The translations under genes were made by a program, and so were the position numbers. A stretch of 64,000 nucleotides of DNA from contig JBHGNT010000001.1 of NCBI GenBank assembly GCA_043228905.1, positions 4,650,001 to 4,714,000 on the forward strand, read 5' to 3'. The notes beneath the pieces are model-generated. The model was not told the origin of the DNA, did no database searches, and was given only the letters and a program-made list of their open reading frames with translations. The stretch comes from Azolla caroliniana. Its lineage: Eukaryota; Plantae; Polypodiophyta. Positions 1-34,344 of the stretch are shown piece by piece. Each line of letters starts with the position of its first letter. Position 1 is the stretch's first letter.

Positions 1-56
1 AATTGATCAGAAGAAAATATTACGAGTGGCTTTCAAGATGCAATTAAACAAATCAC

Positions 57-3000
57 CTGACCCATTTGACCAAAGCCTATAATGACAACAGGTTCATTCA
101 CCTCAAATGTCTCTGTAATTGAAACCTGCTTTACATTAACCAAACCATGCCAAATGAAATCCCAATTCAGATGGTACCCTTTTTTAAGTAATATTATCTG
201 GAAGATGAGATGTGTACATTTGTCTGTGGTATATCAAACCGTGTTTCAATAAATCCTGCCAATTTTTGACCCACTTCATTCAAAAATGGTGTCAATGACA
301 TTGACAGAACAACGACAATGATCAATAATCTGTTCAGCTCCAAAGGCAAGACTCCTAACCTGAAGGAAGATATTGTAATTATTCTCTTTGAATGAATCAA
401 AATTTCACCCTCATAGAAGTCAAATTATAAATGAAGAAATGACGAACCTGTTGGCAAGAGAAAACACAACAAATGCAAACTCTCCACCTTGAGAGAGTAG
501 AAGCCCTATTCGTACACTTTCTGGTAGTGTGAGGCCAACAAAGGGTCCAACAGTCGTGATGATTGCGGTCTTTATTGCTATTAACCCCCCAAGAAGTGTC
601 AACACATTTGGCCACTCCCGTATTAACAGCTGGTTTACAAAGTTTATACTGGTTAAGTTTTTATTCCTGATCATTCAAATTACTTAGTTGTTAAAATTTC
701 AAAACCTCAATATCAATGGAAGTGCCAGTTGTGACAAAAAATAACCCAAGGAGTAAGCCCCTGAAAGGCCGAATTTCTGCTTCAATTTGGGTTCGATAAT
801 TAGTTTCTGCTAGAAGTGCACCAGCAAGAAAAGCTCCAAGCTGTTTCAATGCATAAATGATTCAAAAATTAGATGCAGGATGCTCCACATCTACAGTTTT
901 CCTTATTTTTTGTGATATACATATAGACCATTGGGACTTGGATTGTAGCCTACTGTTGGAAGCGAAAACAAAATGACAAAGATGCTAATAACTACACTAA
1001 AAAGTACCTGACACACGGTCTGTATTAAAACTGCAACAAAACTTAACCAGAAGACATACTCACCGTATCACTAAATCCAAGCTTCTGAGTAATTAGTGAT
1101 GTACCAGTTACAGTCAAGAGACATAGAGCATTGAAAGCTTCTGAGCTCCTGGATTCAGCCACAACCTATAGATATTCCATTAACCACAACCTATTTAGAA
1201 ACTTAAATTTGGATTGTATAACAGAGGAATATTCTGGTAAATTTGGAAAACTCAAATGTGGTGTTGTAAATAGCCAACAAATTAGGGGGTATTTTGGTGT
1301 TTTGCCCTATTCTTTAGTACAGTTTGTGCATCTATTCAGGCTAAATGACACCCCCGAAATGTCACCTCAAATATACGGCGCAGAAATACTTGACCACCAA
1401 AAGAAAGAATTCCCAGCCCACCAAGAGCTTTGAGGCTCTCAGCAGCAAGTAGTGGCCATACACTTTCCTTTCCAAGTGTCTGAATCAACATCAACAGAAG
1501 AAAATGTCAGATAACAAAGAACTTCCATGACAATTGAGAGAAACATATGCAGGAGAAGCATTGTCATATACCCCACTTTCGAGTATTGGTAAAATGACCA
1601 ACAATGGAACTACAGCAATATCCTGCGGGTTAAATCAAAGTATAGCATGAATTCCTATAGCTTATCAGCAGTATCACAAGTTCTATATTAAGAGAATAAT
1701 ACGAAGTGGACCTGAAAAAGAAGTATTCCCAGTGTTGCTGAACCAAAACGGGTAGGGAGTTCTCCTTTTTCTGCAAGAAGCTGAAGCATTCAAAATAGAC
1801 AAGTTAGCAAGTCCCAAACAAGCAAACCCCCTGACGCAGCAAAAATATTCTTGCTTTACACATTCAATTTTACAAGAAAGTTAGCACCAATAAATTTCCA
1901 TCATCATTAGATTGTCCCACTATACAATATTTGGTCTATAACCCAACTTTACATGACTTTGGACTTTCCCTTTTCATCATTCAATTTGTCTTCACTGGTT
2001 TTCTTTCATTACAAGATACATCTGAACCACCCAGTGCATCCTCCAAGAGGGATGATCATTTCCAATCCTATCATGTTAACTCATTATCAATAATGGGTTC
2101 TTCCTATTCATTTTTAGTGAACACATTTCTGAAGACAATCTTGTGCTAATCTAAGTAAAACAGACACGCCAACTGCTAAAATGTAACATGGTTCCTTTTA
2201 TTGCAAAGAATTGGGGAGATCATGCTGCCTGCAACCCATGATATGATGAGCCATCAATGTTTATACCACTTTCAGGGGAATTGAAACATCCACTGGGTGA
2301 ATGAATTCGTTGCATATCCACACATTAATTACAGGGCTAGTTGTAATACTGACGCAGCTTAACACCAATTTTATGATATCATAAAAATGAAAGGAGGTTC
2401 ATTTTAATAGGAATCCAGTAACTCAGTGTAGAAACGTCATCAATGTTATCCTGTCAATCCAACAATAAGAACTTGGCTTCTTCCTAACTATCTGTTTGTA
2501 AAGGAGTCAAGGAACTCAACAGGATACACAAATGTTAGTCACATGACTACTGCATGATTCTCCATGGATCTCACACAAACAAGAAACAAGGCAAATGTTG
2601 TAATGTAATGTCAACTTTCAAGACATTCTCTTGGGCTAATCTCAAGTCAACCAGTCACTCCAACCCATAGAATGCAACAAGGTTTATTTTATTGCATTCT
2701 GACACTATTCTACGAACACGGCAACTTGATTGACATTACATATTTATATGTCTTGACAAGTTGGAACATACATGGCATTTGTAAAACTTATATGCAGAAT
2801 CAGAGTTCTATCAAAGTATTGTGGTCTGCAAAGCATGTTGACTAGATTCCAATATATGACTCCCTTCTCCACATGCCGCAAGCTTCTGATAATAGAATAG
2901 ATGGCATTATAAATTGTGGTAAATGGAATGAGCGCATCCAACTTCTGGATTCCAAACTCTGAACAGGAGGAGAATATGCAGCATCTTAATCATGTGTATT

Positions 3001-6000
3001 CTCGCAGGGAGACTTTGAGCATATCTAACATGTGGCTGCAAACAAGAGACTGCCACTCAATGTGTAAATCAAAAGTATGTGAATGAAGAAACGAGATATC
3101 AGATAGGAGCCTAGGTGAAAAAGAACATGAAAGATCTCGTCAAAGAACTTTGCTGGCTAGGTAGAAATGGGTCACAATCGCCATAGAAGCACATGGCACT
3201 CTAAACTAAAACAATTCTCCTAGCCCATATTTGGGAAGAGCCTTAAGGTAAAGATCTTGTGGAGAACATCTCAGTCTGCATCACAGGTTCTATAGCCTCC
3301 AAGCCCCACTGTGCTTAGGAAGAACCAATGTGCCCAACCACTCGTACCCTGGCCCAATCCATCAAAGCCAGGGTTAGTCTCTATGTAGCATCCAGGGTTG
3401 AATCTGAGAGGTTGGTCTCTATTTAGCATCCAGTAAGATGTAGTATACCATGCATATAAAGTAATACCTGGTTAGGAACAAACTATCGACCAACAAGTGA
3501 GAAATGTATAGAGGACTATATGAAATATCCACAGATAGTAATCATGATGGATGCCGGGTGTGAAGTTCCAATACACAAAGTCTTCTTGAAATCCACAAGT
3601 AAAATAGTCATTGGCTGGCCTGGATCTTTAACATGTGCAATAGCTTCGTACAAACAAAATGCAGTATCCAAAATACAACAATCTTGGGGATAAAACTTGT
3701 CTCATCATATGGAACTTGCTACTTCATTCGATGGAGACAGAGAATATTTCCCATCACTGTGCCAACCTTAAAAATGAGGGCCGTTACTAATTAAATGTTT
3801 GCAACCCAACCTATATTGCCTTACTGATTTTCCCACGATTTCTGGAGATGCAAGCACAGTACCATTATCATTCACCACATCACTCACTGTGATGATATGG
3901 AATAACAGATACTTTGTATACAACATATATGCCTAGGATTGTACCTGTCTTTAGTTTCTCTTATAGAGCATACACAACATTATTTAGCCCATTTATTTCA
4001 TTATACATACAATCATTCTTCGTGTGACAAACCTGCAAAACAAAGGCTGAAGATGACATTGAGAGTGCAGCTCCAATAACTACTGCTTCATCTATTGTCC
4101 GAATATTTACCTGGATACCATTTTGCCAGTTAGTTGAGTATATAGTAATTCCAATTTCCATCATTCTACTATTTAGCTAATTTATACAGAATGAGTATAA
4201 ATCATTGAGAGACCACTCAATATCTAAAATTTGAGTATTCAAGAAAGAAACGGCCTGCCTTCTTGAGAGGGGAGTTATACCAAATCGGGTCTCGAATGAA
4301 ATAGAAACTCTAGAATTTTTGTCCCAATAGCACCATTTGGTGGAAGCTCAAATGCCGTAAATGCTAAAGTAGAAAGCAAAACCTGGTAAAATCATAAAAC
4401 AAGTAGCAATTCTGATATTCCAAAACAGTTAGATAATGATCCTCCAATATGGAAATATCCTTTTAAACTTCCAATATTCCTACAGAATGAACACTGTTAA
4501 AAAATTGAATGAAAACAAACCTGTGCTAGGCCCATACCAAAAGCAAACTTTGCAAGTGCTTTTAACCGTGCTAATGATAACTCCAAGCCCATCTCAAACA
4601 ACTGGAAAGATCCAATTTTTGGTAAACAGAATCAGAATTCTTCTTGATGTTGATATTATAACTTCTTAATTCTAATTAATTAATTAAAAAGTTTTTAATA
4701 TTGTTATCAAGAACAAATAAAAGTTTACTTATTGCAAAATGACCATGATAAAGATACTAATAACCATCAGATCTTTACCTTACTAGCTGAATGAGCCAGC
4801 AACCTTTGATAGTGTAAAAATGTACACTTTGTTTTAAGCTAAGTCAGGCACACATTGTGCAACCCATGAGCCATGGAACATAAACCTTAAATTGGCTGCA
4901 GAATGTTAATTCCTAGAGCTGAAATTACTGCACTTATTTGGTCTCTAATTCCAGCACTTTTTGTAGCCATGTCACTCCCAACCAGAGTCAGCCATACATA
5001 ATATAAGCCCCTGATACCATATTATCCCATGGACATCGTGTGGCCACTGTAACCTACATCCTTGGATTTCTCAGCTAAGGTCACCTTACATAGCCAAGTT
5101 CAAGATAGAACCTTTACCTCTCCATGCCTTCATTCCATTATGAGCATGAGGCAAAAGGTTCTTTACTGGAACACTTTTGTCGTCTCAGTTATTAGGTTTG
5201 TGGTAACTAACCCAATCCTTGCAGCCCTGCCTTGCATTGACTGAGTTAAAACATTGCTCTGGCTTCACAACTGCATTTCTAATACTTATAGAAAGACAGT
5301 AGGATATCCTATGTTTGATGAAGGTAGCCGTTCCTGGAAAATTGCAAAAACAGATGCTATCACAGAAACGATTCTCGGTGTTTCTGTCTGTCAAAGATTT
5401 ATGATTGTACTAGATATAGTGTGTTTTCTTTATTGTTTTCAAAATTTTAATGGATTAGTACAAATTGGAACTGCTCCCAAATTATGCACTTCTTGTAAGC
5501 CGACAAGTGCACAACATTTTAGCTTTCCTTATTCTCATTTTACTCCAAAAGACAACCCGTTAAAGGCTTACAAAGTAATCAGTTCCAACTAGATTGCTCA
5601 TAGCGTATTACTTTACAAAACATGATTGTTTTGAGCGGAGAGAAATCTCAAGTTATCAAGTATCTACTCAACCTGTACAATGAAGAGCCCATGATTTTTA
5701 AGAAGTACACCAATATCCTTGAACTCTCAAAATATTTCCAGCATGCAGTTACTCTATAATTTTAACACATTGCAATCACATACTCACAAGAAAAAGAATG
5801 CCTAATTCGGATAAGGCTTTGACATCAACAATGTTTCGAATCAAGCCCAGCTGGTTGAGAACAACACCAGTCAAAAAGAAACCCAAGATCTGCCAAAAGA
5901 AAGATATGTTTGGTGCTTGAGTAATGCATGAATCATATATAACATCAATATCACGAGTGGTGCAAAATACAAATAATAGGTCAGCATACCGGGCTGGCTT

Positions 6001-6337
6001 TAATAGCCTTGAATGTTGGTACAACAAAAACTGTTGCTGCTAAAAATGTTAGAGTATCTAGACCCAAATCATTAATAACATCCAATCCTGCTGCTATGCT
6101 TACTTCAGCTCTCGGGATTAAGGGTAATCTCTGATCTGATATGAACAAATTGCATTTTTTTGCTCTGTACTTGTACATCCACGCTTGTAATCTGGGGTCT
6201 GCAGTTCCGTGTTTGAAATCCATAAATCGACTTTGTTCAAAACACGTTGACTTTTTGTGTTTGATACGGAAGTGGCATTGCGGTCTTGAGTGTAAACAAG
6301 TAGAAATCAAGGATTTATGTGGCCTTCCATTATAAGC
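57..6337 (-). CDS. KEA3: K+ efflux antiporter 3 (thylakoid CPA2 K+/H+ antiporter); partial, 3' exons lie left of the window and the first exon is uncertain
   Basis: Phase-consistent GT-AG exons (5'->3'): 6337-5990, 5889-5788, 4601-4521, 4382-4281, 4110-4033, 1780-1712, 1622-1572, 1479-1366, 1165-1064, 840-706, 629-448, 359-218, 125-57. They give DVINDLGLDTLTFL..KASPILGFFLTGVVLNQLGLIRN..LFEMGLELSLARLKALAKFAFGMG..FELPPNGAIGTKILEFLFHSRPDL..QDIAVVPLLVILP..SQGGEFAFVVFSLANRLGVLP..EPVVIIGFGQMGQ, which I recognise as the KEA3 transmembrane domain plus the start of the KTN domain. A candidate upstream exon ends at ~7135 (..ICGE|GT, phase 0). Confidence 0.95.
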
Positions 6338-8576
6338 CTGAAATAAATACAAAGAAGACTAAGTTTAAAGACCAAGACAATCAGATAGCAAGGAATTTTT
6401 AAGTCAGATCCAGACCTCAATGTTAAGTACTATCAGTAATCTAGAAAACAGTAAGTGTAATGACTCATTGAATGGATTTTCATAAAGATACAAATTATCT
6501 TACAGAATTTGCAGGGTGACCCTTTTTTTCAAAATTCAGGTGAGCTATATAACTGTAAATCGTCAGTTCTGCATATGACACTAAAAATAATAGCACAATG
6601 AATTTATGTACTAAAGTTAATCAATGCTTGAAGCGTATATAGGTCGATATCCTCTATTGAAATCTTTTTATGGAAGTTCACCAAGACTGATGTTTATATT
6701 TTTCGTAAGTTTTTCCTTTCTAGGAAGCATCTCAGGATTACCTCATTAGGTGAGTTCCAAATGAAAACCTATGATTGTGAGAATTTGGGGTTTATGAATA
6801 AAGGAATAGAGGTGCATTTGTAAGCCAGGACGTGAGCTTTCTTGCTGTATATAAATCACAGGCATAAAAGACAAGGATCAGAACAATTATGGCTGTTTGT
6901 TTGCATTCTCTTTAGAGAAAGATACATATATATTACTGTAAAAGGTATACATCAAACCACTAGATGCAAAGTGTGTCAAGGCCTTGTCTCTATGACCTGT
7001 GTATAGAGCTGTGTATCAAACAGTTGTCTATATAAGAGAAGTTTGAGATGTGCCTGTGAAGCATCCTATAGATTGGAAAGAGAGTAAAACAACTCCATCC
7101 AGATTGACAGTAAGGACTCTCAGATGGAAAATACCTCTCCACAAATAATATTCTGCAGGCAGTGAGACTTATATATGCACCAACTGTTAAGAATACAGTG
7201 GAAAACAGATATCGTCCCAACGGTATCACTGCTGGTGTGAATTATACAAAGGTAGCATAAATAAGACTCTGGTTGTATATTACAGCCACAACCATGGACT
7301 GATATATTTGTAGAGTGCAATGTTTGCAGATTATCAACAGTTTGCATCACAGACCGAAACATTACAGCAGTGAAGTCAAACATATCCTTCTTCGAGAGGA
7401 TGCTACTACCATTCTGGAAAATTTGAAAGAGAAAAGGGACCTTCCTTAATAATATGATAATTGCAATTTTTGGCCTTGGAGAAGTGATTTGTTATAGTGT
7501 GAGGTAAAAGAAGTCCATAACTTCTTCGTGTGATCTTCAAATTGAGAGTCTAGCGATTCTGCAATCGTCTCATCGAGATCTTTCAAATAAATGTCATGTT
7601 AAAACATTCTAATTACCATTTTCTCAATCTAAAACTAAAGATATCATCATTGACTTTTGTTACACAGCTCCTTTTACTCCCATAATTGACCCTATTAAAT
7701 ATATAAGGTAGGTATACCAAAAAACATATTTCACTAATGGAGCTCATAATGTTCATCGAAGTATTACAAAGAGAACATTAAAAATGAGGGTGCAAGAGAT
7801 GACTACCAGGAGTATATTGCCATTGGGGGATGTGAAACCGGATGCTTCTAGTGATGAGGAAGCTCTTGAATTTCCTACCATAGCTATCAAAATATGGTCA
7901 CAACGAGCTCACAGCAATAAATATACCATACAGCACAGTCCAAACTAAGAACTTTCTTCCTCTGCTCAGTGATTAATAAACAAATCTCCACCTAAGCTGC
8001 AAGAAATGAGTGATTGGTTATCCTCTAAAAACTCTTTTGTTGATGGGTCTTCAGAAAGCTCTTTCTTAATGACGGATTCTCTACATCACATGCCCTTCCA
8101 ATAACGGGTTCTTTGCAATACATATTGCTCCATTGACGGTTCAAACAGTTCTGTTATGTACGCAACACATACTTTTCCATTGATGGATCCTCTGCAATAC
8201 ATGATCTTCTTCCATTGATGGAATCCATGTAAAACATGCTATTGTCGATGATGGGTTACCTTCCAGAAGCGTCTTTATAGAACTGATGGGTCGTCTTCAA
8301 GGAGCTCTATAATACTGTGTCTCGACACGTGATCTTTCAATCTCTGCTTGAAACCTATAGCTCTTGTTTTGAGCTAATACCAGGGAAGACACATGGGTTT
8401 CAATCGTTCATCTGGATTCTTTTTCTTCTCGCGTTTTCTTCCTCGTTATCCAAAATCTGCACAAGGGACGCTTTTCTGAGCTGACTGGGCAGATCAATGG
8501 GCGAGTTAGTGGTGCATCCATTCTCCACGTTTGCAAAGTCGCGTGTGGTCTGTTTCTCATCCCCTGTTTCTGCTGG

Positions 8577-8750
8577 ATATACATACATTATACATACATT
8601 ATACATACATACATACATACATACATACATACATTATACATATTTTATACATACATACATACATTATACATACATTATACATACATACATACATACATAC
8701 ATACATACATTATACATACATTATACATACATACATACATACATACATAT
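8577..8750. repeat. Compound (TACA)n/(TACAT-TA) microsatellite
   Basis: Direct reading: atacatacattatacatacat... It ends about 10 bp from the LTR edge. Confidence 0.95.
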
Positions 8751-8760
8751 ATCATCATAT

Positions 8761-9004
8761 TGTGAAATGCTCTCAAGAATAGCCCCCCTTTTCATTATGT
8801 CTCAAGTTACATTTTATAGACTCTCTCTTAGCGTGGAGGGTGTTCTCCCGCTCCAATTAGCTCTACTAATTATGGGGCTTGGTGGGGGCCTAGTTTGGGT
8901 GTGGTGCATGAGGCTTGGTAGGGGCCTAATTTGGGTGTGGTCTATGTGTGGTGCATGGGGCTTGGTAGGGGCCTAATCTAGGTGTGGTCCATGTGACCAC
9001 CACA
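8761..9004 (-). repeat. 3' LTR
   Basis: Matches 13264-13507 except at 8849 (C vs T) and 8997 (C vs G); TATAAAA on the minus strand at ~8812-8818; three internal G-rich subrepeats. Confidence 0.97.
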
Positions 9005-9026
9005 ATTCCCCCTTGTAAAAAAAAAA
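9005..9026 (-). promoter_or_regulatory. Polypurine tract with upstream U-tract
   Basis: Minus strand reads TAA-C-T10-AC-AAGGGGGAAT then the TG of the 3' LTR. Confidence 0.8.
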
Positions 9027-9027
9027 G

Positions 9028-12000
9028 TTACTGTGCAGTCGAAGCGCGACAAGGCGTGGACGACGGTTCCAGACGGGGGGATGACACGGGCGTGGGCGTA
9101 GGCATGAGTGTGGGCGGGGGCGGTGGTAGTTGATGGAAGGGCTTCATGCGAGACTGGTGAGCAAAGGTAGAGCGGTTGTTGGAGGCGCGGCGGAGCAGGT
9201 ATGTAGTGTCACGTATCTGCTTTTGAACTTCGAAGGGACCGATCCATCGGTGCATGAGCGATTCGCTGAGACCGCGACGACGGATGGGGAAGTAGACGAG
9301 GACTTTGTCACCGACGTGGTATTGATGATCGACACGGCCTATATCGTGTTGTCGTTTTTGGCGTAGTTGTGCCTGGTGCAGGTTGCTCGTGATGGCTTTG
9401 CGGAGGAGGGGCTGGAGTTGTTGTAGGTGGGACCACCAAGACACTGCGTCAGCGTGGAGTCGTGTGGTTGGTTGCGGGACTGCCACTTCTGGGGGTAAGC
9501 GCGGGTCCCTTCCGTAAAGGGCCCGAAATGGGCTAATGCGGGTAGAGGCTTGCACAGTTGTGTTGTAGGCATGCGTAACGAAGGGCAAGATTCGGTCCCA
9601 GGTTGAGTGCAGCGGATCGATGTAGGCTGAGATTTGTTGTTTTAAGGTTCGATTGAGGCGCTCCGTCAACCCATTCGTTTGCGGATGGTAGGGTGACGTG
9701 AATAACTGGGGTGAAACGAGGCGTAGGAGCTCACCGTTGAACTGGGGTCCTCAATCGGACAAGATTTGGAGTGGGCAACCGTGGGGGAAGATGATTTTCT
9801 CCAATAGTTTGGAGGCGATGGTCATAGCCTTTGCATCTGGGATAGCGGCCGTCTCAGCCCAACGCGTCAAGTACTCGGTGATGACGAGGATGAATTCGTT
9901 CCCTCCTTGTGACTCGGGAAAGGGGCCCATAATGTCCCATCCGACGATTTCAAATGGAGCTTGAACTTGTATCGGATGTAAGAGGCCTTGAGCCACTTGA
10001 GGTGATTTGATGGCCTGACATAAGTTGCATGCTTTGATGTAGGAGGCGACCTCGTGGCGTAGCCCAGGCCAATAGAATTTGCGACGAATTTTGTCGAGCA
10101 CCTTATGAAAACCCAAGTGGCCGGACAACGGGTGATTGTGGAAGAAACGAAGGTAAGACTGGCGTAGTTGCTCAAGCACGTAGACTCGGGGTTCTTTGCC
10201 TACTTGACAAAAAAGTAGGACATTATCCTGGATCATGAATTGCTTGGTGAGTGATGATGTTGGTTCAACTCGTAGGCGGTGGCAGATATCTTGGATTTGT
10301 TTGTCGTGTTGTTGCATGTTGGCCATTTGGGACGAGGATATGGGGAAATCGATTGTGTTGGAGGTGATCTGGTTCGCCTGAAAGGATATGCGGGATAATC
10401 CATCGGCGACGATGTTTTGTGGACCATGGCGATAGCGCAGAGTGAATGTGTAATCCTGTAGCGCCAAAACCCAACGAAGTAAGCGGCCGGGTGGATGAGC
10501 CTTCTTTATGAGGGAGAGCAATGGTTGATGGTCTGTTTCGACTGATGTATTTGATCCGTGAAGGTATGGGTGGAAACGATGGAATGCCCAGACGATGGCG
10601 AGGAACTCTTTTTCAGTTGTCGAGTAATTTTGTTCGGCTTTGGTAAGTGACCGACTGATGTAGGCAATCGGGCGGAGTTGGTCGTTGTCGTCGGATTGGA
10701 GCAGGACCGCACCAAGGCCGACATTGGAGGCATCCGTCTGCAGATGGAAAGGCTTTGTGAAATCAGGGTGGGCCAGGAGGTCAGAGGCTTGGAGTGTTCT
10801 CTTGAGCTGCAGGAAGCTGGATTCGCAGGCTTCGGTCCACAGGAAGGGTGCGTCTTTTTGTAGGAGCGCGCGTAGTGGGGCTGACAGGTCGGCTAGCCAT
10901 GGGATGAAACGAAGAGAGAACGTGAGGAGGCCGAGGAAGTGTTGAAGCTGCTTGACTGTGGTGGGGCGTGGGAATTTTTGGACTGCTTCTGTCTTCTCCG
11001 GGTCCATTTGTATTCCGTCGAAGGAGATGACGTACCCAAGGAAGCGGAGGCACGTACTACCCCATCGGCACTTCTTCCATTGCAGCTGCAATCGATAGCG
11101 TTGAACACAAGTTAGGACCTCCCGAAGGACTTGAAGGTGTTCTGCCCAAGTGCTTGTATGTACCAGAATATCGTCTAGATAGACGATAACGACACGGCGG
11201 GTGATGAGATCATCGAAGATGGCATTAGCCATTCGTTGGAATGTGCTCCCCGCATCAGATAGGCCAAAGGGCATCCGTGTGAACTGAAAAATGCCTTTCC
11301 TAGTGCGGAATGCAGTTTTGTGGGCATCGTGAGGATTCATCGGGATCTGCCAATATCCCGAGGCTAGATCGAGGGAGGTGAAGTACTTTGATTTGCCAAG
11401 CTGGTCGAGGAGGTCATCGATACGAGGGAGATGGTATCGGTCATGGGTGGTGACATGGTTCAATTGTCGGAAGTCGACACAAAAGCGGTAAGAACCATCC
11501 CCTTTCTTTACCATGTGTGGCTCCGAGATCCACTCGCTCTTGGAAGGTGTGATAATCCCTTGTTGGAGCATAGTTTTGACGGCGTTGTCGATGCGCTCGT
11601 GGTCGAGAGGCGAGCGACGTCGGGGAGCTGCGTTGATGGGGCGGGCGTTGCCTGTAGGAATCGTGTGGTGAATCGGAAAACGGACTGAGGGAGGTTTTAC
11701 AGGCGGTGTAGACAACGAGGGAAAGGTGGCGAGGAGCCGTCTGATGTCGTTGATGCGCTCCGCCGGTGATATCAGGTACTGTGTGTTGCTGATGTGGGTG
11801 GTATCCCGCGGAGTAGTGAAGAGCGCGATCGGAATGTGATTTGGGAGGATGAGTTGTTGTGCGGAGAAATCGAGACAGGCTCGACTATGGAGGAACCAAT
11901 CACATCCCAAGGTGATTGGGAACAACTGGCGCGGGAGGACGTAGAAATGATGGTGGATCTGGGCGGAACTAATGGTGAGCATGCACCTGACTTGCATATG

Positions 12001-12237
12001 TGAGTGGTACACCCGTTGTTGGTCGCCGAAGAGGATTTTAATGGGCGGTGCGTGGCTCGTGGGAAGTTGTAATTGGGTGACTAAATCTGCGCTGATGGAA
12101 GAGATGCTGCTACCGGAGTCGAGGAGAACTTCTTGGGTCGTGTGCTGGAGGCGGGCGATTGTGGTACAAACGGGCGAAGTTGATGAAGTGGAGGCGTGGA
12201 CGTGCGGGGGCGGCTCTCCCTGCGGCACCCCGCGCAT
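9028..12237 (-). pseudogene. pol: pol polyprotein (protease, RT, RNase H, integrase with GPY/F) with an in-frame TGA at 9753-9751
   Basis: LLDSGS protease; FCVDFRQLN..LPRIDDLLDQL..LDLASGYWQI..MPFGL..YLDD RT; TDASNVGLGAVLLQ..NYSTTEKEFLAIVWA..TDHQPL RNase H; H..H..CNLC zinc finger; WDIMGPFP..ILSD*GPQF..YHPQTNGLTERLN core; WIGPFEV motif. ORFs 9751-12237 and 9028-9669 are in the same frame. Confidence 0.95.
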
Positions 12238-13187
12238 TAGTTTTCCGGGAGCTCAGAGAGGGAGGCAGCGTCAGCTAATTGGACGTTCTGCTTCTGTTGG
12301 TGATTCTGCCACTTTCGGCAGTGACGCCGAATGTGGCCATAGTTGTTGCAGTAGAAACATTTGGGGCGTCCCTGGCTGTCTCGTTCGGGCAATGCACGCT
12401 TGGCACGTAATTGCGCGTTCTGGATGTCGATGTCCATGGGAGTGACGGCTGGTATAGTGTTTGTATGATCATGACTGAGATTACCTGGTGTGTGCATGTC
12501 GTGCGCGTCTGCAGCTTCGATGTGTTGGGCAGTGAGGATGGCTTCGTGTAGTGTCGTCGGGCCTTGATCGCGTACACGGCGGTGGAGGTCATGTCGTATA
12601 CGCGGCCAGAAAAAAAACAACTTCATGTCCTCCGACATGTTGGCGTCAGCCCGACGTAGGATCTGCACAAAACGAACCGCGAACTGGGTGATGGGTTCGC
12701 GTGGTTGTTGGGTAATTGACTCAAGTTGTTGTAGGGCCGTCTGGCGGGAGTCTTGATGAGCAAAATTCCGAATCATGGCTGCCCGTAATAGATCCCAGTC
12801 ATTGCGTGTCTCTTCGGGTTGTTGTACAAGCCATGTTGCCGCGATATTCTCGAGGAGTGTCTTCATCTCCATTGCCTTCCGAGGGTGTGGCCACTGGTGG
12901 TAACTGGCCACCATTTCGAAATGATCCAGCCAAGAGAGGACGTCTTCCGATGGTAGGCCGGAGAACGGTTTTGGGCGAACTCGAGAGTCCGGGAGATTTT
13001 GTTGTGGCTCGGATCGTGCTGAAAGAAAGGACAACATGGCTTGGTTAGTATGGTTAACTTGTAAAATGATGTTGGACAGAGCTTGAACCAGTTGGTCGAT
13101 TGGCGATGTGGGCTGGTGTCCTTGATTGTGTTGTAGGAATTCCGGATTCATCGAGTTTGCGTTGCCGTCGTTGTTGTCGTGTTGCAT
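12237..13187 (-). CDS. gag: Gag with CCHC zinc knuckle
   Basis: PKPFSGLPSEDVLSWLDHFE capsid-type motif, PMDID, and CFYCNNYGHIRRHC (CX2CX4HX4C). The first ATG after the PBS is at 13187; the ORF-track start at 13298 lies inside the LTR. Confidence 0.92.
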   Translation of the reverse strand: MQHDNNDGNANSMNPEFLQHNQGHQPTSPIDQLVQALSNIILQVNHTNQAMLSFLSARSEPQQNLPDSRVRPKPFSGLPSEDVLSWLDHFEMVASYHQWPHPRKAMEMKTLLENIAATWLVQQPEETRNDWDLLRAAMIRNFAHQDSRQTALQQLESITQQPREPITQFAVRFVQILRRADANMSEDMKLFFFWPRIRHDLHRRVRDQGPTTLHEAILTAQHIEAADAHDMHTPGNLSHDHTNTIPAVTPMDIDIQNAQLRAKRALPERDSQGRPKCFYCNNYGHIRRHCRKWQNHQQKQNVQLADAASLSELPEN

Positions 13188-13228
13188 CGTGGCGGGCGTT
13201 GTTGGGGTCGTGAGTTGGGGTGGCTTGG

Positions 13229-13244
13229 CCCGTCTTCTCCACCA
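13229..13244 (-). promoter_or_regulatory. Primer binding site, tRNA-Ala-like
   Basis: TGGTGGAGAAGACGGG begins 3 nt after the inner ..TTTCACA copy. TGGTGGAGA is complementary to the ..UCUCCACCA 3' end typical of eukaryotic tRNA-Ala. Confidence 0.7.
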
Positions 13245-13263
13245 AGATGTGAAATGCTCAAGA

Positions 13264-13507
13264 TGTGAAATGCTCTCAAGAATAGCCCCCCTTTTCATTA
13301 TGTCTCAAGTTACATTTTATAGACTCTCTCTTAGCGTGGAGGGTGTTCTCCTGCTCCAATTAGCTCTACTAATTATGGGGCTTGGTGGGGGCCTAGTTTG
13401 GGTGTGGTGCATGAGGCTTGGTAGGGGCCTAATTTGGGTGTGGTCTATGTGTGGTGCATGGGGCTTGGTAGGGGCCTAATCTAGGTGTGGTCCATGTGAG
13501 CACCACA
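13264..13507 (-). repeat. 5' LTR
   Basis: 244 bp, TG..CA ends, adjacent to PBS and gag. Confidence 0.97.
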
Positions 13508-14174
13508 ATATCGCCCACATACCCAAACACAATAATACACAATATGTACATACAACCAAAAATGGCCAAATTTACAGAATTAGCCCCTCCCCCCTAGGCC
13601 TCACTCTTTGATGGCATTATGCATAGCTCCCCAATGCCTCATTCTCCATGCATAGCATCACACACAAGCCAGATCTCACGATAATCGCGACCATTATGCT
13701 CATTCCCTCGTGAAAGCAGCGCGCTAATATATCCATGGGTTTTGCTCGTTATATTCCTGTCGTTGCGGCGATTTGAAGGATCATAACTCTCGTTTCGTAG
13801 GTACAAACAAATTAGATCATTGACTCGGCGATCTCGTTGTCGCAACATGAATGAAAAACAATCCTACGGTACACTTACTGAAATATGTCCCATGTTTTTG
13901 GTAAGCTCCAACATTTGCAAGACAAAGATGATTCAAGAGGTTTGGATTAACTCCCCCAAAAAAGAGGGGGCAAATTTGAGGAAATGGTTTAGATTTGAGA
14001 TATATCTAAGTGGAATTCGTTACATGTAAAATTTACATGATCAATAATGCCTCCCACATTGACGTCTTCCTCTAGCTTGTGCAATGGAGTTGGGTTGAGC
14101 TTAAATAGTGAGCCAGAACATATATTAAGGATTTGGAAAGAAAGAAATAACATCATTGTTATTTAATTAAATGC

Positions 14175-18231: not shown

Positions 18232-21200
18232 TTACATTTCCACAATGGCACGCCCTAGTATTTCCCCTTTCTCCAATGCTTCATAGCATTGATTTGCCTC
18301 TTCTAAGGTTCGTTTTTCCGTAACCGTGGATAAAAGGTCTAGTGATCCCATCTCAACAAGTCCGAGAATATTTGGGAGGTCTTGTCGAGCTCTAGCTCCA
18401 TATGATCCAATAATCCGCACCTTATCACAGTGTCAAAGACAACATTATAAGATAACACACTCCCAACTATAACAAGGCAAGCCACTCTAGGCTCAAAAAA
18501 GATTAATTGCATATTATATTCAGTTAATAAAATAGAGCCAAGGACCACAATTGTCTTACCTGTCTCCTCACAAGTCTAGTCATGTCCACGTGTGCTGTCA
18601 CACCGAACGGTGCGAGCCCAATGATCACGGCTCTACCCCCATCTCGTATTGCTAAAGTAGCCTGAACAAATGTTTGGGGAAGACCCAACGCTTCAATGGC
18701 AATATCTACACCTCTGCCTTCAGTGATCTCCTGAATTACCAATACATAAGCAATCGACCAAGTCATTCACTTGGATTAATGACCCTTTGTGTGAAGACAA
18801 ATTCAACATTTTCGATTCTTGGGTAGAAAAATCTATTCTAGCTTTGGTGGTACTAGCCATTGACCTATCAGCTATAGTTTGATAGATTGTCAACTTCCTA
18901 CCCTGTCTCAATTGCCACAAGTTGCAATCAACCCCCCCAACAACAAAAAATAATGATGATGATGGTGGGTAATCATTGACCTTTATCCTCTCAGGAACAT
19001 TTTCCTTTAACCCGTTCACCGTATGAGTTGCCCCTAGTTCTTTTGCCTTCTCTAGCTTTTTGTCACTGATATCAACTGCAATCACTTTCCTTCCGCCAAA
19101 GGCTCGAGCAATCTGTAAGCAACTAGAATTGTGAAAAAAGACAGTATAAGAACCATTTTCTTGAAGGAATTGTTATTCCGCTCGGCTATATTGGCATAAC
19201 TTCAAAAGAACCTCTAATAAAATTCTACCATTCAAACCTAAGAAATTCACATCTATCAAGAACACACGCCATACACCTACAAAAGCAAATTCACACCTTC
19301 ACTACCACTCAACTACTACAATCACAGATGACTTAGCAACTATCCCCAATTCGCCTAATTAAAACATGAACACCTATCACTAACTTAAACAAAATCAATT
19401 AGAGCTAGTTCAGATGAGCACAATCACAGATACAGCTGAACCCAATCAGCAAATTTATGTTGAATATACACAGCCCTATCATCGATACCTATCTCTGTTT
19501 TTGTATAATACTAGAACTCTTTAGCTTAAGTTTTATTTTATTTTATTTTATTTTATTTTATTTTATTTTTACTTTCGATGAATGGGTAAATACCCCATTT
19601 TGTTGTAAACCAATTGTCTCATGGGCCAATTTTGGTTTTAGAAGATATTAATATATCTTTCTTTCTTTATTTCTTTCTATCACATACACAAGTATTAACA
19701 TTAGTTCTATGAGCACAAACATTGAAAAAAACAGTGACCCGCTGCACCTGTAATTGTTTACCACACCTATCACGACAATTCATGTAAACGTATTAAAACT
19801 AGTTCACATAGGTACAAACAACTGGATAAACTCATTAACCAACCACACTAAGATTCAATTGGCACATTCACACCTATCATTATCACACAAAAACCCATCA
19901 GGACTGGTTTGCATGAGCTCAAATACCTGCACATTCACATCTATCACTACTGCACAAATCTATTAGAACTAGTTCACTTAAGCACAAATACACTGTACAT
20001 TCACATGTATCCCTATAACACACACAAACATATTAGAAATTATTTATATGGGCACAAACACAGATAAACATGTAATTATCTGCACCTGGACCCAACGCCA
20101 CCAGTGCCAATGACAGCAACAGTCTCTCCAGCCCGCATGTCCGCTGCATTCTTTATTGCACCATAGGCCGTGAAAACGGCACACCCAAGGATAGCAGACT
20201 CTGAGAAGGGTGCTACCTCGGGAATAACTGCAAGCCCATTGGAGGGAACAATACAGTACTCTGCAAGGCCTCCCATACTATACATATGTATCGGTTTTCC
20301 TATAAAGATTATAAGCCATTAAAATTTTAGTTGATTTGGGAATGGATTTTGCTGATACTGTTCCTAGCATATCTTCAGGGATGAACTCAAGTTTTGTCTT
20401 CCTCAAAAACTTATCCTTGACAATGTGAAAGGTTTTCATAGAACTAAAGGTGGTCTCCAGGGTCTTTCTCAATAAAGCTTTTGAAATCACAGGTAAGGTT
20501 TTCAAAAGCCTGAAGAAGCCTTCAGGAGAGTATAGAGATATAAACTTTTCATGATACCATCCTACCAGTCTTATGAAGAAAAAGTCGTGTTTCTCCATCG
20601 TACAGTGTGCCTTTTCCTCGGCTATAATGAAAGAATGTTTCGCACAAATCTTCCTGACCCTGGACATCCACAAATACTTTTAGGGTAGCGAGGAAACAGG
20701 AGCTTCCAAATAACCATAGAGCCATTAAGAGAGCAGAAAAGAAACATGATCTTACTTTTATACAATAAAAGCAGCCACCACATGGCATTATAAATGCTCC
20801 GACAACACGTGACCCAATTGGAAGCCTACACAATAACGACATTTTGTATTAGCCAAGATCAGATCCTTTGAATGCACTTATCAGCTTTTATCACACTTTG
20901 TTATCACCTTTTCACAGTGGCAGCATCTGTCAGAGGCCCATGTTCCACAACCTCGCCTGTTACTTCATGGCCTAAAACAGCCGGCATCGGAAATGGCTGA
21001 TCCTTCTTTATTATATGAAGATCTGAGTGACAGACTCCACATGCTGTACACATTAGAATTACATTGTTATGGGCAGTACTTTTGTGTTCTCACAATTTCC
21101 AGATTATTTTACAAAAAACATAGAAAGGTAATGTACATGAAAAGCAAAGACATACATTCTGGTACATGAGTTAGTCTCAATCACCAAATTTGGTCACTTG

Positions 21201-22554
21201 AAATAATTCTATTAGCCTGATAAAACCAAATCAGCAAAAGCAAACTGGAGGTATACAGCATCCATATTCGATCAACGAATCCATCAAGAAAAAAAAGGCA
21301 CCATGATATATACAGAAAAAATTACATGTTTCATCAGTGAATCCATTCAAAAAACCAGCACAAAGAAGGTAGGATAAAACAACTCCATTAGCCTGTCAAC
21401 TCTGGATCAGCGGAAAAAAAATGTATACAGCATACAGATTCAATTGATGAATCCATCGAGAAAGAAATGCACAATGATTTAACAAAATAATAAGTCTGGA
21501 TCAGAGAAAATAAAGATGTGTACAGGAAATAAAAATATCTGATCAATGATTCAATCGAGAAAAATCTCACGATGATTCAACATATCAATCAATGAATAGC
21601 TCAAAACACATATATTCAGCCCATCAACTAATGAATCAAACAAATAAAAAAGAATATTCCATTTACTTCAAATTTTCATAAGAATTTATCCCAATCAAAA
21701 TAAAAAAAAGACACATAATCATTCGATCAGCCCCCGTTCAAAGAATGAGAAAAGGGAAAATCACAGATTTTGCCTATTGATGAATCCATCCAATGAACAG
21801 TAGAAAGATTCGACCATCCAATGGGATGGAAAGAGATTTCAATCATCCAAACAATTCAAATAAATAAATCATATAAATTTATTCGATCAATGAAACAAAC
21901 AAAAAAATATATTTTTTAATGGCAGTAGGGTCCATCAAAAAAATTTGCACAATGATTTCATAAATCAAATGAGAAAACAAAAATAGATTGAATTCAGTCA
22001 AACCCATCAATGAATTAAACATACAAAAAGAAAAACCACAGGCTTAGAATCAGGCCCATCAAACGAAAAAACATACAAAACTTAGAATCAAACCCATCAA
22101 TGAATCAAACAAAAGAAAAACAATCAAAATCAAACCCACTAATGAATCAAATCAAATACAAACAAATATCAAATTATTTTAAGAAAATATAAAATTGGAT
22201 ACTAGAAACTAACATACCTCTCGTTTTGATGAGAACTTCACCTACTTTCGGGCGAGGCATCTGAAGTTCTTCAATAGACATGGGTCTCCCAGGCTCCCAG
22301 AAGACAGCAGCTTTCATGGTGGAAGGAAGACTGCCCATCAGATAATCCTTTGCACCTATATGGTCATCTTTGGAGGCAGAGCTAATATTGGAGCTAACTT
22401 TAGAGACCACCCCATCACTACTACTCTGTGTATCACCATTGCCAGTAGTAGTACTGCAAAGGGATCTAGTGAATGCATTGAAGTTCTTCGAAAAAAGAAA
22501 CTTCTTCCTAATGATACGATCTGTTCCAATCACTCTAGCAGTCGCCATGGACAC
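18232..22554 (-). CDS. Zinc-dependent MDR alcohol dehydrogenase/oxidoreductase, likely organelle-targeted (resembles Arabidopsis At5g63620/HER2)
   Basis: Exons 22554-22218, 21043-20908, 20825-20756, 20659-20566, 20299-20086, 19122-18981, 18730-18560, 18420-18232, all phase-consistent. Motifs: CGVCHSD, GHEVTG, structural Zn CGGCFYC..C, GCAVFT, Rossmann GTGGVG. Arg/Ser-rich N-terminal extension. Confidence 0.93.
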
Positions 22555-22561
22555 AAAGGAG

Positions 22562-22565
<4 letters not shown>

Positions 22566-22616
<51 letters not shown>
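22566..22616. repeat. (CT)n/(GA)n microsatellite in the ADH 5' UTR
   Basis: About 25 CT units just upstream of the ATG. Confidence 0.95.
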
Positions 22617-24291: not shown

Positions 24292-24516
24292 TGTCATGTA
24301 TGTACATATGTTCCTACATATGCCCTTTATGAAAGTGGGTCTATGGACACATACATACATACACACACATATCATGTATGTGACATACATATGTTTCTAT
24401 ATACATATGCCCCCTATGAAAGTGGGTCTATGTACACACACATACACACACACACAAGTGATGTATGTACATATGTTCCTACATATGCTCCCTATGAAAG
24501 TGGGTCTATGTACACA

Positions 24517-24547
<31 letters not shown>
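24290..24547. repeat. Three-copy ~80-87 bp tandem repeat with CA/TACA microsatellite linkers
   Basis: Core CATATGCYCYYTATGAAAGTGGGTCTATGKACAC; GAAAGTGGGT at 24331, 24418 and 24496. Confidence 0.9.
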
Positions 24548-24548
<1 letters not shown>

Positions 24549-24752
24549 GAGTTTGGTGGCTTTTTCACAGGAAATCGGAAGTCCAGAGAGAGAGAGAGAG
24601 AGAATTTATTCTGTGTGCAGGATTCCCCGGATCCACACACACACAGAAGAAAAAGAAGAAGAAGAAGAAGAAGGAGAAGGAGAAGGAGAAGGAGAAGGAG
24701 AAGGAGAAGAATAAGCCCTTATCTTTCTCTGATACAGGAATTTAAGAAAGCA

Positions 24753-27700
24753 ATGGCACCTCAAATCACCTCCAAGACAAGCACAATGACAAGCACAATC
24801 ACCACAATTAATGGCAATGCTTCAAATGCCCCCGTCCTCACCAGCGCGTTGTATGTGTGGGGCTACAATGACAGAGGACAGACGGCATCCAGCCCACACG
24901 TGCGCAAGTGCCTCCGGATCCCAAAGCCTGTTTCTCCCTCCCTCTTCCGCTCACATCAAAATCAAAATCAAAATCAACACCAACACCAACCTAAATCTGA
25001 ATATGTCACTTCTGCGAACAACTACACCAACAATATCAGAATGCTTGACATTGCTTGTGGTCTCCAACATACTGCCACGGTCACCTCCGATGGCTCCTTG
25101 TTCACATGGGGTAGGCAAAACTTACTCTTTTCTCTTTTTCTGAAGGGAGAAAACCCCAGATACCCCTCTCCCCCCTCAAATAAACTGATTTTTTCTTATT
25201 GCCTTGTATGCACTTACGTTTTGGTATTTCCTCAATCGCTCCCTATGCCCCTTTGTCAACTTCTAAAAGAGAAAAATAAGAGAATTAATTAACCTCACAT
25301 TTAATTTCTCAAAATACCTCATATAATTGAGGGAAAGGGAATTAATTGACCAAATTCTAGGAAAATTGTCAACGGTATTTGGGTGAAGGACGAAAATAAA
25401 GGGGCATCTGGGGAAATAAAGAAAGCTAGGAGGTATCTGGGAGTTTCCCTTTTCTCTAATCCTCTTTTTTTGTTTGATGCTTTTTCGTTTCCCTTTTCAT
25501 ACCCAAATATGTTTTTTTCCTCCTATATTGATTGTCGTGGTGGTGGTGTGTATTTTATTTTTGTATTTATTTCTAGGTGAATTTTAGGGTGATTAAGTAA
25601 TGGAATGCATTTCTCAAACAATTTGAATATGTCATGACATAGATTCTGCAATATTTTTGAATCTGATATGGATCATCTGATCCAGAAGGCTATTTCTGCA
25701 ATGCAGAATTGGGAATGACCATATGGGATTTGTATGTGTGGATTTTGAATAGTTGTTATCCATAAAATCCACTAGAAGTTTCTTTTGTTGGATATGATGG
25801 GTTTTCGCAAGACACACTTTGCATGCAGAAAAGTACCACTATCAAAGGGATATATGCACACAAATTGTATAAGAAAATGATGTTATTTTTTTCATGAAAA
25901 ATCCACAGGTAATGTTTCTGATATAGGCCATGAATAGATGTGGTACAAAGTTTTTATAGTATTGGTACATAATGAACTATTATTCAAGATTTTGAAGGAG
26001 ACCTATTGTTTTAATAATTGGTTCTTGAGTGTTTTTGCCGTTCAAAGAGTTGGCACATTCTTATTTTATACACTTTGTTTTTGGGCATTGTTAACTTTAG
26101 GCCACAAAGCCTATTTCTGCATGATCAATCTTTCAACCTCGGAATCTGAAAACTTTTTCCTTAGTATTCACTAAATTTAGGAACTTTATCAGAGATTGAA
26201 TACAGCATTAATAATTCATCTGATATGTAAGGAAAGACATGGACCAAATAGGGTTTTGAACGATTAAGCACACCAGAAATATTTTTCTTGGACTGTCGAT
26301 TAAATATAACTGCCTGCAAATTAGAGGGTGTTTTACTGTCTATTTGTCCACATCTTCACACTTAACTTGGAATGGTGTAGAGGGTTATCTTCAGCAATGC
26401 TCATTTGGAAGGCAACGTTGGAATTGATGCTGCAGTAGCAATATATTCTAAATTGGTATGCCGACTACAAAATTTTGTTGTCATCATAATCTTTATTTTT
26501 CTTGCAACTGATTAGAGCTTAAGGGGGTAATCTTATAGCAATGAGAAATGTAATAAGACATGAAAAAAAATACTGAGAATTCAGTATGGATGGTACACCC
26601 TTTGAGTTGCGCATCATTGTTTATGCAAAAACTTCCAGCCATGACATCTATATTTTTGCAATTGTTATTGATTAGGCAATGGTTCATTCTAGTCATTCTA
26701 TTGACTAAGCTATAGTCCATAGTTGATTTTGCCATTTCCGGAATATTAATGAACTGCATCCTGTTACTTTAGTGTGCATTTGTGAAGATCGTTTGGGTAG
26801 TCTTAAATTATGCAGTCATTTAGTTTGCTCAACACGTGGTTAATCATGATGGTTTAATAGCTGGCAAAGTGGAGTCTCCAGATGTGACAACCCTACCTGT
26901 AGTCCAAGTCTCAAGTAGTTATGAAGCCCATCAAGGTCTTGTGCCTTGTGAGTTCCCTTTATGTATTGTATTAAAAGAGAACCAAATATATATTAATATA
27001 GAGGTCAAAATGGACTGCAAGTCCAAAACAGAGATTACATCTTAAAATTTTGTTCTCACCTTTGAGAACAAACCCTATTATTATCTCTTAAGAGGCCAAA
27101 ATGGTCTAGGAGACCATAAGAGAGATTATATCTCAAAATTTTGTTGCGGATTGGAGAACAACAATCCTTAATATCATCTCAGAGAATTAGATAAGTAAAC
27201 ACAAGGCCCTAGGAGCTCTGACAAGAATTAGAGATAAAAGCAAAAATGATTGACTTTTGGAAAAGGAGATGATGAAGCTTTCATACTTTTGAAATTAAGA
27301 TAAGCCAGCATATATTTAAACCCTTTGAGTAAGATTTCCATGGCTGGTAAAATGATCACTTGGGTGTTACAATGTCCTGCAGCTGATCCTATTTCGATGA
27401 CATTCAATCATTAGGGGGGAATTATCATTGTGACCTAATTCTCCCCTTGTTTTTATATTTCGAAGCACTTGTGTAAAACATAACATGAATGCATTTTGAC
27501 TGGGTAAACCAGCCTGTTACAATGCTCCCTTCTGAAGAAGAATGGATCACAAAGTAGTCTAAAAGGGCTATGTAGTCACTATCTTTAACTTCTCGATACT
27601 ACCAGTCTGATTTTTTTATTGGGAGGAGTGGTGGCTGCTGTATTAATTAACTGAGGTTATCGATTTTTTTTTTGTTTCTCCTGTATAGTATATATGCTTC

Positions 27701-33178: not shown

Positions 33179-34344
33179 TCATCGAGGTTGATGAATTGTT
33201 TTGCTGCACAGTGCAGATTTCTGTGGCCGGAGTATAGGTTTTGGAGGAGGTAAAGGTTTCGAATACATCTCTTCTTGTTTCTTCTTCTTCTTCGGCTTCA
33301 AATGGCTCAGCACCATGTCTATTTTCTCTGTACCTGCTCACAAGTAAACACGTAAGTTAGTTACAGGTTGGATCTAAAAAAACGAAACAAACCGAAAGAA
33401 TACCACATACTGAAAGATAACTATAAGCCCAGAGTTCTTGTTTATTTCCATACACATCGTTGAGGTTCCATTGTTACCCTACAGGATTGATCCTGACCCT
33501 GACCATCTAATTGAAATAGAGTTAGATCGGCTCACGCTGACCATCTAATTGTTCTGTAGGTGGATTGATCACTAGCATTTGGGGACGTAACCACAAAATA
33601 GGGATATTTGGGGCAAAAAAAAAGTTTTTCAAGGGGGAGAGAAATCGCATGTGCAAGAGATACAGAAAAACCTAGTTCTCGAATGATTGAAAAATCAGGA
33701 TTTGCGAGAGAAAGATTCTAAATTTCAGCGAAACCCTATATTATAGGGCAGATGTGCTGATAAAAATACCAGATCTAACCTCATATATCCTAAAACGAAC
33801 ACGAAACTGGAAGCGTAAAGCAAACTATGTCGACGTTTTCAACACAACCTAATTTAGGAGGTACAAGAGAAAGCTTACATATCTCATTAAGAGACTAAAC
33901 CCTGATTCACCGAATAGACCGATGTGGGAAGGTGCAGAAAACGCAGCTAAACCAAATTCAGAAAATGAACATAGAAAACTGTATATTATACTCACTTGAG
34001 AAAGGAGGCATATTTTCTGAGTCCAGCTGAAACTTATTAAATTCCATAGCTAAATCGACATCGACCACGACTTCGACCTCAGCAGATCCATGATCAAATC
34101 CGTCGTTTTCACTTTTCTTCGTCATTGGATGATGCTGAAGAAGAAATTGGTCAGGATCGGTTAAGCAATACTCGTGAAGCCAATACTCACGGAAGGCGGG
34201 ACAGGTGTGAACGAGGCACCACCACTCAGGTGAGAAATCCTCGGCAGCAAGGAAGGCGGCAGGGACGAAGAGAGGTGCATTAGGGTTGAGGGTTAGGGTT
34301 TCTCTTTTCATGGACGCAGGAATGGACGTAGCCAGAGCAGCCAT
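33179..34344 (-). CDS. ERD15: ERD15/CID-like PAM2-motif (PABP-interacting) protein
   Basis: Exon 1 34344-33996 ([13 protein letters not shown]2 motif; [18 protein letters not shown]) splices in phase 1 to exon 2 33333-33179, which ends in the family-typical IHQPR*. Confidence 0.9.

What the first reader, a model, noticed from the sequence alone, without database searches (positions are those of the whole stretch)
8757..13511. Compact, GC-rich Gypsy element with a 4-bp ATAT TSD and tRNA-Ala PBS: candidate undescribed lineage or horizontal transfer
Seen: only 4,747 bp; 244-bp LTRs with 2 differences; flanks share ATAT but not a 5-mer (CATAT vs ATATC); PBS starts TGGTGGAGA; no chromodomain, extra aRH domain or env (pol stops 23 nt before the LTR); gag and pol in different frames; the body is visibly richer in GC and CpG than the flanking host DNA. 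Established: plant chromoviruses and Athila/Tat usually make 5-bp TSDs, and Athila/Tat elements are much longer. 4-bp TSDs, ATAT targets (Drosophila 17.6/297) and frameshifted gag-pol are familiar from metazoan Metaviridae. The Gag PxxFSG..EDVxxWLxxFE and RNase H signatures also look animal/fungal-like to me. Inference: either a little-known non-seed-plant clade (compare Phygy/Selgy) or a recent invader from outside plants.
Basis: partly seen in the sequence, partly recalled or inferred. Interest (0 to 1): 0.8.

Follow-up and report, generated by a model that had tools for sequence, protein, structure and literature searches.

The report
Fern retrotransposon lineage targeting ATAT
This is a young, broken copy of a compact jumping gene from an old lineage of fern retrotransposons that inserts mainly at ATAT and likely makes its enzymes by a -1 ribosomal frameshift; it has the same build as the spikemoss group Selgy and is not a recent invader from animals.

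Summary
The element is real: 4,747 bp, 244-bp LTRs with 2 differences. An empty allele in another sample proves the 4-bp ATAT duplication.

Length, 4-bp TSD, tRNA-Ala PBS, overlapping gag/pol and no extra domain are the published profile of Selgy (Selaginella). Membership is untested: I could not obtain a Selgy sequence.

Recent horizontal transfer is not supported. At least 8 sister families (58-82% Pol identity, silent sites near saturation, GC 43-55%) form one clade, with named relatives only in Adiantum and Ceratopteris. AU tests reject grouping with chromoviruses or the sampled animal elements, but not with Athila.

Two traits go beyond the papers I read. First, ATAT targeting is strong (14 of 15 listed junction contigs; background 1%). 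Second, a slippery heptamer (GGGAAAC/GGAAAAC) and a covarying hairpin are conserved at the gag-pol junction, predicting -1 frameshifting. An ancient non-plant origin stays open.

The parts
8757..8760 (.). Target-site duplication ATAT, left copy, at the end of a (TACA)n microsatellite
   Evidence: empty allele with a single ATAT in run X3
8761..9004 (-). 3' LTR, 244 bp, TG..CA, with a TATA-like motif 58 nt before its end
9006..9014 (-). Polypurine tract AAGGGGGAA, preceded by a T run
   Evidence: similar tracts in sister families
9028..12246 (-). pol (protease, RT, RNase H, integrase with zinc finger, core and SH3-like end), in the -1 frame to gag; interrupted in this copy
   Evidence: uninterrupted 1,093-aa relative P0001
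9751..9753 (-). In-frame stop in the integrase core of this copy; a 15-bp deletion lies near 9712
12204..12233 (-). Predicted hairpin starting 6-7 nt after the slippery site
   Evidence: not significant in this copy alone (z -0.87), supported across families
12240..12246 (-). Slippery heptamer G GAA AAC at the end of gag (G GGA AAC in most sister families); the gag stop follows at 12237-12239
12237..13187 (-). gag, 316 aa from the likely ATG: Retrotrans_gag/Ty3_capsid and one CCHC-like knuckle
13236..13244 (-). Primer-binding site TGGTGGAGA (tRNA-Ala by recall)
   Evidence: TGG(T/C)GGAG just after an LTR-end CA in 19 of 40 clade loci
13248..13263 (-). 16-bp repeat of the LTR end between the 5' LTR and the PBS; other copies end at either CA
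13264..13507 (-). 5' LTR, 244 bp
13508..13511 (.). Target-site duplication ATAT, right copy

Best explanation
The window holds a recent, now broken insertion of a compact Gypsy retrotransposon from a many-family lineage found in ferns, likely inherited vertically and likely the fern counterpart of Selgy. Shown: domain order, PBS and PPT, the -1 gag/pol overlap, the 4-bp ATAT duplication at this site, the insertion polymorphism and an ATAT bias at other junctions. Inferred mechanism: the 5' LTR drives one RNA; most ribosomes stop after Gag, and some slip back one base at G GGA AAC / G GAA AAC in front of a hairpin to make Gag-Pol. A host tRNA-Ala primes the minus strand, the PPT primes the plus strand, and the integrase makes a 4-bp staggered cut centred on the ATAT palindrome. 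This copy cannot make a whole integrase.
For: Selgy profile matches on 5 of 5 structural traits. The clade has support 100 in all three Pol trees and holds 8 groups under 85% RT-RH identity. Families differ at 61-77% of fourfold sites with 58-82% protein identity (21 pairs). All named hits among the 120 listed of 146 Gag hits are Adiantum capillus-veneris, A. nelumboides or Ceratopteris richardii (47-59%); the A. nelumboides RT-RH piece P0008 is 62-68% identical to 5 families. pol is in -1 in 14 of 15 junctions called. Heptamer in 24 junctions: GGGAAAC 18, GGAAAAC 5, GGGAAAT 1. Hairpin: 73% of cells paired, 17 double changes against 6.3 +/- 2.0, 0 of 500 shuffles; z <= -2 in 7 of 14 families. 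ATAT in 14 of 15 listed junction contigs at one end and 4 of 4 5' flanks of loci, against 1.0% background. AU tests reject grouping with chromoviruses (p 0.006) and two animal groups (p 0.002, 1e-10).
Against: No Selaginella sequence appeared among named hits of three protein searches, so Selgy kinship rests on structure alone, which PMC6317226 itself calls weak for classification. That paper reports variable TSD sequences for all lineages but Phygy, unlike the ATAT bias here. In the free trees the nearest relatives are unnamed environmental elements, not the Athila-like reference. RNAalifold gave no consensus hairpin; the structure was chosen after seeing the sequences, with two registers tried after one mis-typed attempt; 7 of 14 hairpins, this copy's included, are not significant alone. 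The protein pattern used to find junctions partly fixes the heptamer. Only 2 of 5 3' flanks in loci are exact ATAT (others ATAC, ATAG, ATTA), and 16 loose-end rows were not shown.
Confidence: 0.62

Rival explanations
1. The clade is a separate, undescribed Gypsy lineage that only resembles Selgy, and it entered an early fern or vascular plant by an ancient transfer from a non-plant eukaryote.
For: Its sister is P0010 (unnamed, 51%, support 100/99), inside a group of unnamed environmental elements (95/98; 99). ATAT targets and -1 frameshifts are documented in Drosophila Gypsy elements (PMC3276498; PMC5009743). PMC6317226 leaves the relation of plant non-chromoviruses to non-plant lineages open.
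Against: Five traits match Selgy. Grouping with the Athila-like reference is not rejected (p 0.135; with P0010, p 0.227). No named non-plant element lies inside the 10-row or 13-row group. The hosts of the unnamed neighbours are unknown and could be plants.
Confidence: 0.27
2. The clade is one of the aRH-less Tat lineages (Z1 or Z2) reported from ferns and other non-flowering land plants.
For: PMC10508981 reports Tat Z1 and Z2, without aRH and with an undegraded native RNase H, in most non-flowering land-plant groups. The AU test does not reject a link to the Athila-like reference.
Against: The Athila-like reference sits on a long separate branch in the free trees, and no Tat-named protein ranked among the hits. 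Described Tat/Athila elements are much longer (means 9-15 kb). No Z1/Z2 sequence was available.
Confidence: 0.07
3. This GC-rich family is a recent horizontal invader from an animal or fungus.
For: Internal GC 53% and CpG o/e about 1.0 in a 37% GC, CpG-poor host; 4-bp ATAT as in the Drosophila 297/412 groups.
Against: Sister families in the same assemblies span GC 43-55% and CpG o/e 0.66-1.06; silent sites are near saturation; relatives occur in three named ferns; the best hit outside the clade is 52%; the LTR has lost CG and CHG sites, which suggests a long history under plant-type methylation (inference).
Confidence: 0.03
4. For Pol synthesis only: Pol is made by stop-restart at the overlapping TAATG at the end of gag rather than by frameshifting.
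For: In this family the gag stop overlaps an in-frame pol ATG.
Against: The ATG is not conserved (first Met at +139 in L016, +163 in L011, +214 in L015), while the heptamer and hairpin are.
Confidence: 0.08

Closest known systems
Selgy (non-chromovirus Ty3/gypsy of Selaginella moellendorffii; PMC6317226, passages, section 8, Additional file 5)
   Same: 4.4-6.7 kb, 4-bp TSD, tRNA-Ala PBS, gag and pol in overlapping frames, no chromodomain, aRH or extra ORF.
   Different: Described as specific to a spikemoss; no target-sequence preference and no frameshift signal reported; sequence kinship untested here.
Phygy (Physcomitrella; same paper)
   Same: Non-chromovirus, 4-bp TSD with a sequence preference, no extra domain.
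   Different: Mean 8.6 kb, tRNA-Trp PBS, NCGN target.
Drosophila 297/Transpac (Idefix clade) and 412/mdg1 groups (PMC3276498, passages)
   Same: 4-bp TSD with an ATAT core; -1 gag-pol is common in animal elements (PMC5009743, passages).
   Different: No insect reference was in my trees; the sampled animal elements are rejected as sisters; no env here.
Tat Z1/Z2 (PMC10508981, parts 1-2 of 3)
   Same: Non-chromovirus, no aRH, present in non-flowering land plants.
   Different: Defined as nested in Tat; the free trees here do not join the Athila-like reference; untested directly.
Yeast Ty3 (PDB 7q5b, 4ol8)
   Same: Best solved-structure match (E 2.5e-135); same domain order and recoded Gag-Pol.
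   Different: Ty3 uses a +1 shift, a tRNA-Met primer and targeting of Pol III genes (recalled).

Membership tests
Ty3/Gypsy superfamily | Order GAG-PR-RT-RH-INT between LTRs with PBS and PPT | tested here: met
Selgy | Clusters with Selgy RT-RH-INT (the primary definition) | not testable with these tools
   No Selaginella-named hit; the paper's FASTA and element table could not be read
Selgy | Length 4.4-6.7 kb | tested here: met
   4,747 bp; sister units about 4.7-4.9 kb; range
Selgy | 4-bp TSD | tested here: met
   Empty allele with a single ATAT; length shown for this one site only
Selgy | tRNA-Ala PBS | tested here: inconclusive
   Motif conserved in 19 of 40 loci; tRNA identity recalled; no tRNA gene in the window
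Selgy | gag and pol in overlapping frames, no extra domain | tested here: met
Phygy | 7.7-10 kb, tRNA-Trp PBS, NCGN target | tested here: not met
Chromovirus | Chromodomain and clustering with Tekay/Chlamyvir-type elements | tested here: not met
   No chromodomain; AU p 0.006 against three chromovirus references
Athila/Tat (OTA) | Large size, mostly 5-bp TSD, aRH (Tat) or extra ORFs | tested here: not met
Athila/Tat (OTA), including Tat Z1/Z2 | Phylogenetic nesting | tested here: inconclusive
   One long-branch Athila-like reference (labelled from recalled motifs): not joined in free trees, not rejected by AU (p 0.135, 0.227)
Insect errantiviruses (17.6/297/Idefix) | env ORF | tested here: not met
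   23 nt between pol and the LTR
Insect errantiviruses (17.6/297/Idefix) | Phylogenetic clustering | not tested
   No named insect reference among the sequences fetched

The most novel reading that the evidence does not exclude
An undescribed third plant branch of Ty3/Gypsy, outside chromoviruses, Athila/Tat, Phygy and Selgy, that entered an early fern from a non-plant eukaryote and kept two animal-style habits: a sequence-reading integrase that targets ATAT and a canonical -1 frameshift signal.
Probability: 0.2. Interest if true: 0.68.

Novelty: new variant of a known kind. Interest (0 to 1): 0.42.

Why it matters
Plant LTR retrotransposon classification under-represents non-flowering plants (PMC11358816, passage), and Selgy was described from one spikemoss. 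A young multi-family lineage in ferns makes three things testable. First, whether Selgy is an old vascular-plant lineage lost in seed plants. Second, how a plant integrase reads a target sequence, a trait PMC6317226 reports only for Phygy. Third, whether plant retrotransposons use canonical -1 frameshifting; a 2016 review of a 2003 survey lists only +1 cases for plants. ATAT targeting also places copies beside microsatellites near genes, as here.

Tried and rejected
No whole genome is held for this window, so copies could not be tabulated directly. Viral contigs: 45 pattern matches, no relative. Cluster look-ups for 20 proteins named no organism beyond A. nelumboides. The search with the sister P0010 found no close named relative. 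The representative search was dominated by long multi-copy proteins. The ESM Atlas gave generic Gag clusters, uninformative on origin. RNAalifold found no consensus structure, and my first structure string was mis-registered. No RNA holder was listed, which says nothing on expression. Read depth is about 100-fold or more above the flanks in three runs, but the tool warns that this is no copy number. The sigma-70 scan does not apply to a eukaryote. PMC10886601 (Helenus) was irrelevant. The Gag tree is the quick tree, since the careful search did not finish; it separates the metagenome families from the Adiantum/Ceratopteris ones only weakly (81). Literature searches for this lineage in ferns found no description. 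A newer REXdb release exists by my recall and could not be checked.
Full report
Observation. The element lies on the minus strand at 8761-13507 (4,747 bp), with 244-bp LTRs that differ at 2 sites, ATAT on both flanks, a PBS TGGTGGAGA, a polypurine tract, and pol ending 23 nt before the 3' LTR. Pfam finds Gag, protease, RT, RNase H and integrase, and no chromodomain, second RNase H or env. The interior has GC 0.534 and CpG o/e 1.03 against 0.37 and 0.34-0.44 in the flanks. It differs from these two loci at 4.2-4.6% of sites, with about 40 of some 200 changes being CpG transitions. Uninterrupted Pol exists in the family (P0001, 1,093 aa, 98% over RT-RH).

Target site. A contig of run X3 joins the left-flank microsatellite to the right flank through one ATAT. 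The duplication is therefore 4 bp, and the insertion is absent from at least one allele in that sample. Among the host junctions listed at one end of the element in four runs, 14 of 15 contigs continue with ATAT and one with ATAC; 16 further rows were not shown, and contigs in different runs can be the same site. At the other end the listed flanks end in ATAT (two consensus rows of 2 contigs each) or ATAC (1 contig). In the metagenome loci, 4 of 4 5' flanks are ATAT; the five 3' flanks are ATAT, ATAT, ATAC, ATAG and ATTA. These loci are collapsed assemblies, so they give half-sites, not paired TSDs. ATAT makes up 1.0% of host 4-mers.

The lineage. The RT-RH search gave P0001 at 98%, six unnamed clusters at 65-69%, an Adiantum nelumboides protein at 63%, then a gap to 52% or less (120 of 3,570 hits listed). 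A metagenome scan gave 79 loci, 40 of which I treated as clade members. A PBS motif follows an LTR-end CA in 19 of these 40; most others lack that end. Units are about 4.7-4.9 kb. A Gag profile search returned 146 hits; every named one among the 120 listed is from Adiantum capillus-veneris, A. nelumboides or Ceratopteris richardii, at 47-59%. One Adiantum Gag ends in the same motif as this family's Gag, at the place of the slippery site. Families are 58-82% identical in Pol and differ at 61-77% of fourfold sites (21 pairs), so the radiation is old. GC ranges from 43% to 55% and CpG o/e from 0.66 to 1.06 among families, so GC richness is a family trait, not a mark of foreign origin. The LTR has 1 CG against 14.0 expected and 1 CHG against 11.5; CG is depleted at p < 0.05 in 10 of 13 LTRs and CHG in 6 of 13. 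I read this as long residence under plant-type methylation (inference). The host is likely a fern: this rests on the named relatives and on unchecked earlier notes; I did not test it with host genes.

Phylogeny. Three Pol trees (215 rows FastTree; 59 rows mixture model; 24 rows with bootstrap) give the clade support 100. The unnamed P0010 is its sister (98; 98; 100/99), within a group of unnamed environmental elements. AU tests on the 24-row set reject grouping with three chromovirus references (p 0.006), with the Cordylochernes pair (p 0.002) and with the Amblyomma/Trichuris/Schistosoma group (p 1e-10), but not with the one Athila-like reference (p 0.135; with P0010, 0.227). The Athila-like and Tekay-like labels are mine, from recalled motifs. 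No Selgy, Phygy, Tat or insect reference was available, and rows under 85% coverage or over 85% identity to a kept row were dropped before the first tree (331 to 215).

Gag-Pol expression. pol is in the -1 frame in 14 of 15 junctions called. At the end of gag, 24 junctions (the window and 23 of 40 loci) have GGGAAAC (18), GGAAAAC (5) or GGGAAAT (1) in the X XXY YYZ register. The protein pattern used to find them fixes part of this, but not the choice among synonymous codons. G_GGA_AAC is among the most shift-prone -1 heptamers (PMC5009743, passage). A hairpin starts 6-7 nt downstream. In 14 sequences 73% of cells pair, with 17 double-sided changes against 6.3 +/- 2.0 in shuffles; a second register gave 68% and 13. 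Seven of 14 fold at z <= -2; this copy does not (z -0.87). RNAalifold gave no consensus, and the structure was drawn from these sequences, so the support is moderate. Stop-restart at this family's TAATG is a weaker rival, as the ATG is not conserved.

Comparison. Additional file 5 of PMC6317226 (read whole) lists Selgy with a 4-bp TSD (96%), mean 5,044 bp, tRNA-Ala PBS (90%), overlapping gag/pol (65%) and no extra domain. The main text (passages; section 8) calls it species-specific and says only Phygy has a TSD sequence preference. The element therefore works like Selgy; membership is untested, because that paper's element table and FASTA could not be read and may hold Selgy TSD sequences that bear on the ATAT claim. 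Selgy-classified domains are also reported from a liverwort (PMC12885004, passage). Tat Z1/Z2 lack aRH and occur in non-flowering plants (PMC10508981, parts 1-2 of 3). ATAT targets are known in the Drosophila 297 and 412 groups (PMC3276498, passages). Passages of PMC2864245, PMC6786969, PMC12786077, PMC13469084, PMC9033089, PMC12541382 and PMC11358816 describe no such fern lineage; nine searches found none. The library lacks most subscription papers.

Verdict. A real, young, broken copy of an old fern lineage with Selgy's build. Recent transfer is unlikely (0.03). The fern counterpart of Selgy is the best reading (0.62); a separate lineage of ancient foreign origin stays possible (0.27). The ATAT targeting and the conserved -1 frameshift signal are what is new. 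Interest 0.42.

Noticed in passing
window 36-6358 (minus strand) and 8400-8760: Exons of a cation/H+ antiporter (Pfam Na_H_Exchanger at 423-861; KEA3-like by my recall) lie downstream of the element on the same strand. If its first exon is near 8410-8560 (a guess), the polymorphic 3' LTR with its TATA-like motif sits about 250 bp upstream and could affect the gene.
   Followed up: partly
window 13248-13263: A 16-bp repeat of the LTR end precedes the PBS but is absent from this copy's 3' LTR; other copies end at either CA. Slippage or alternative end processing; unexplained.
   Followed up: partly
window 8761-9004 and 13264-13507: The LTR is 50% GC yet almost free of CG and CHG sites, while the coding interior keeps CpG at the expected level; possibly escape from silencing of the promoter.
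   Followed up: partly
L005 and L007: These contigs show head-to-tail units sharing one LTR; they may be tandem insertions or collapsed assembly.
   Followed up: no
L038, L039, L044, L056, L069: Distant elements outside the fern clade, several with gag and pol in one frame, also carry a TGGTGGAGA PBS, so this primer choice is not diagnostic.
   Followed up: partly
window 18232-22614, 24498-30842, 33958-34410: Host genes: a zinc-binding dehydrogenase, an RCC1-repeat protein and a PAM2-motif protein.
   Followed up: no
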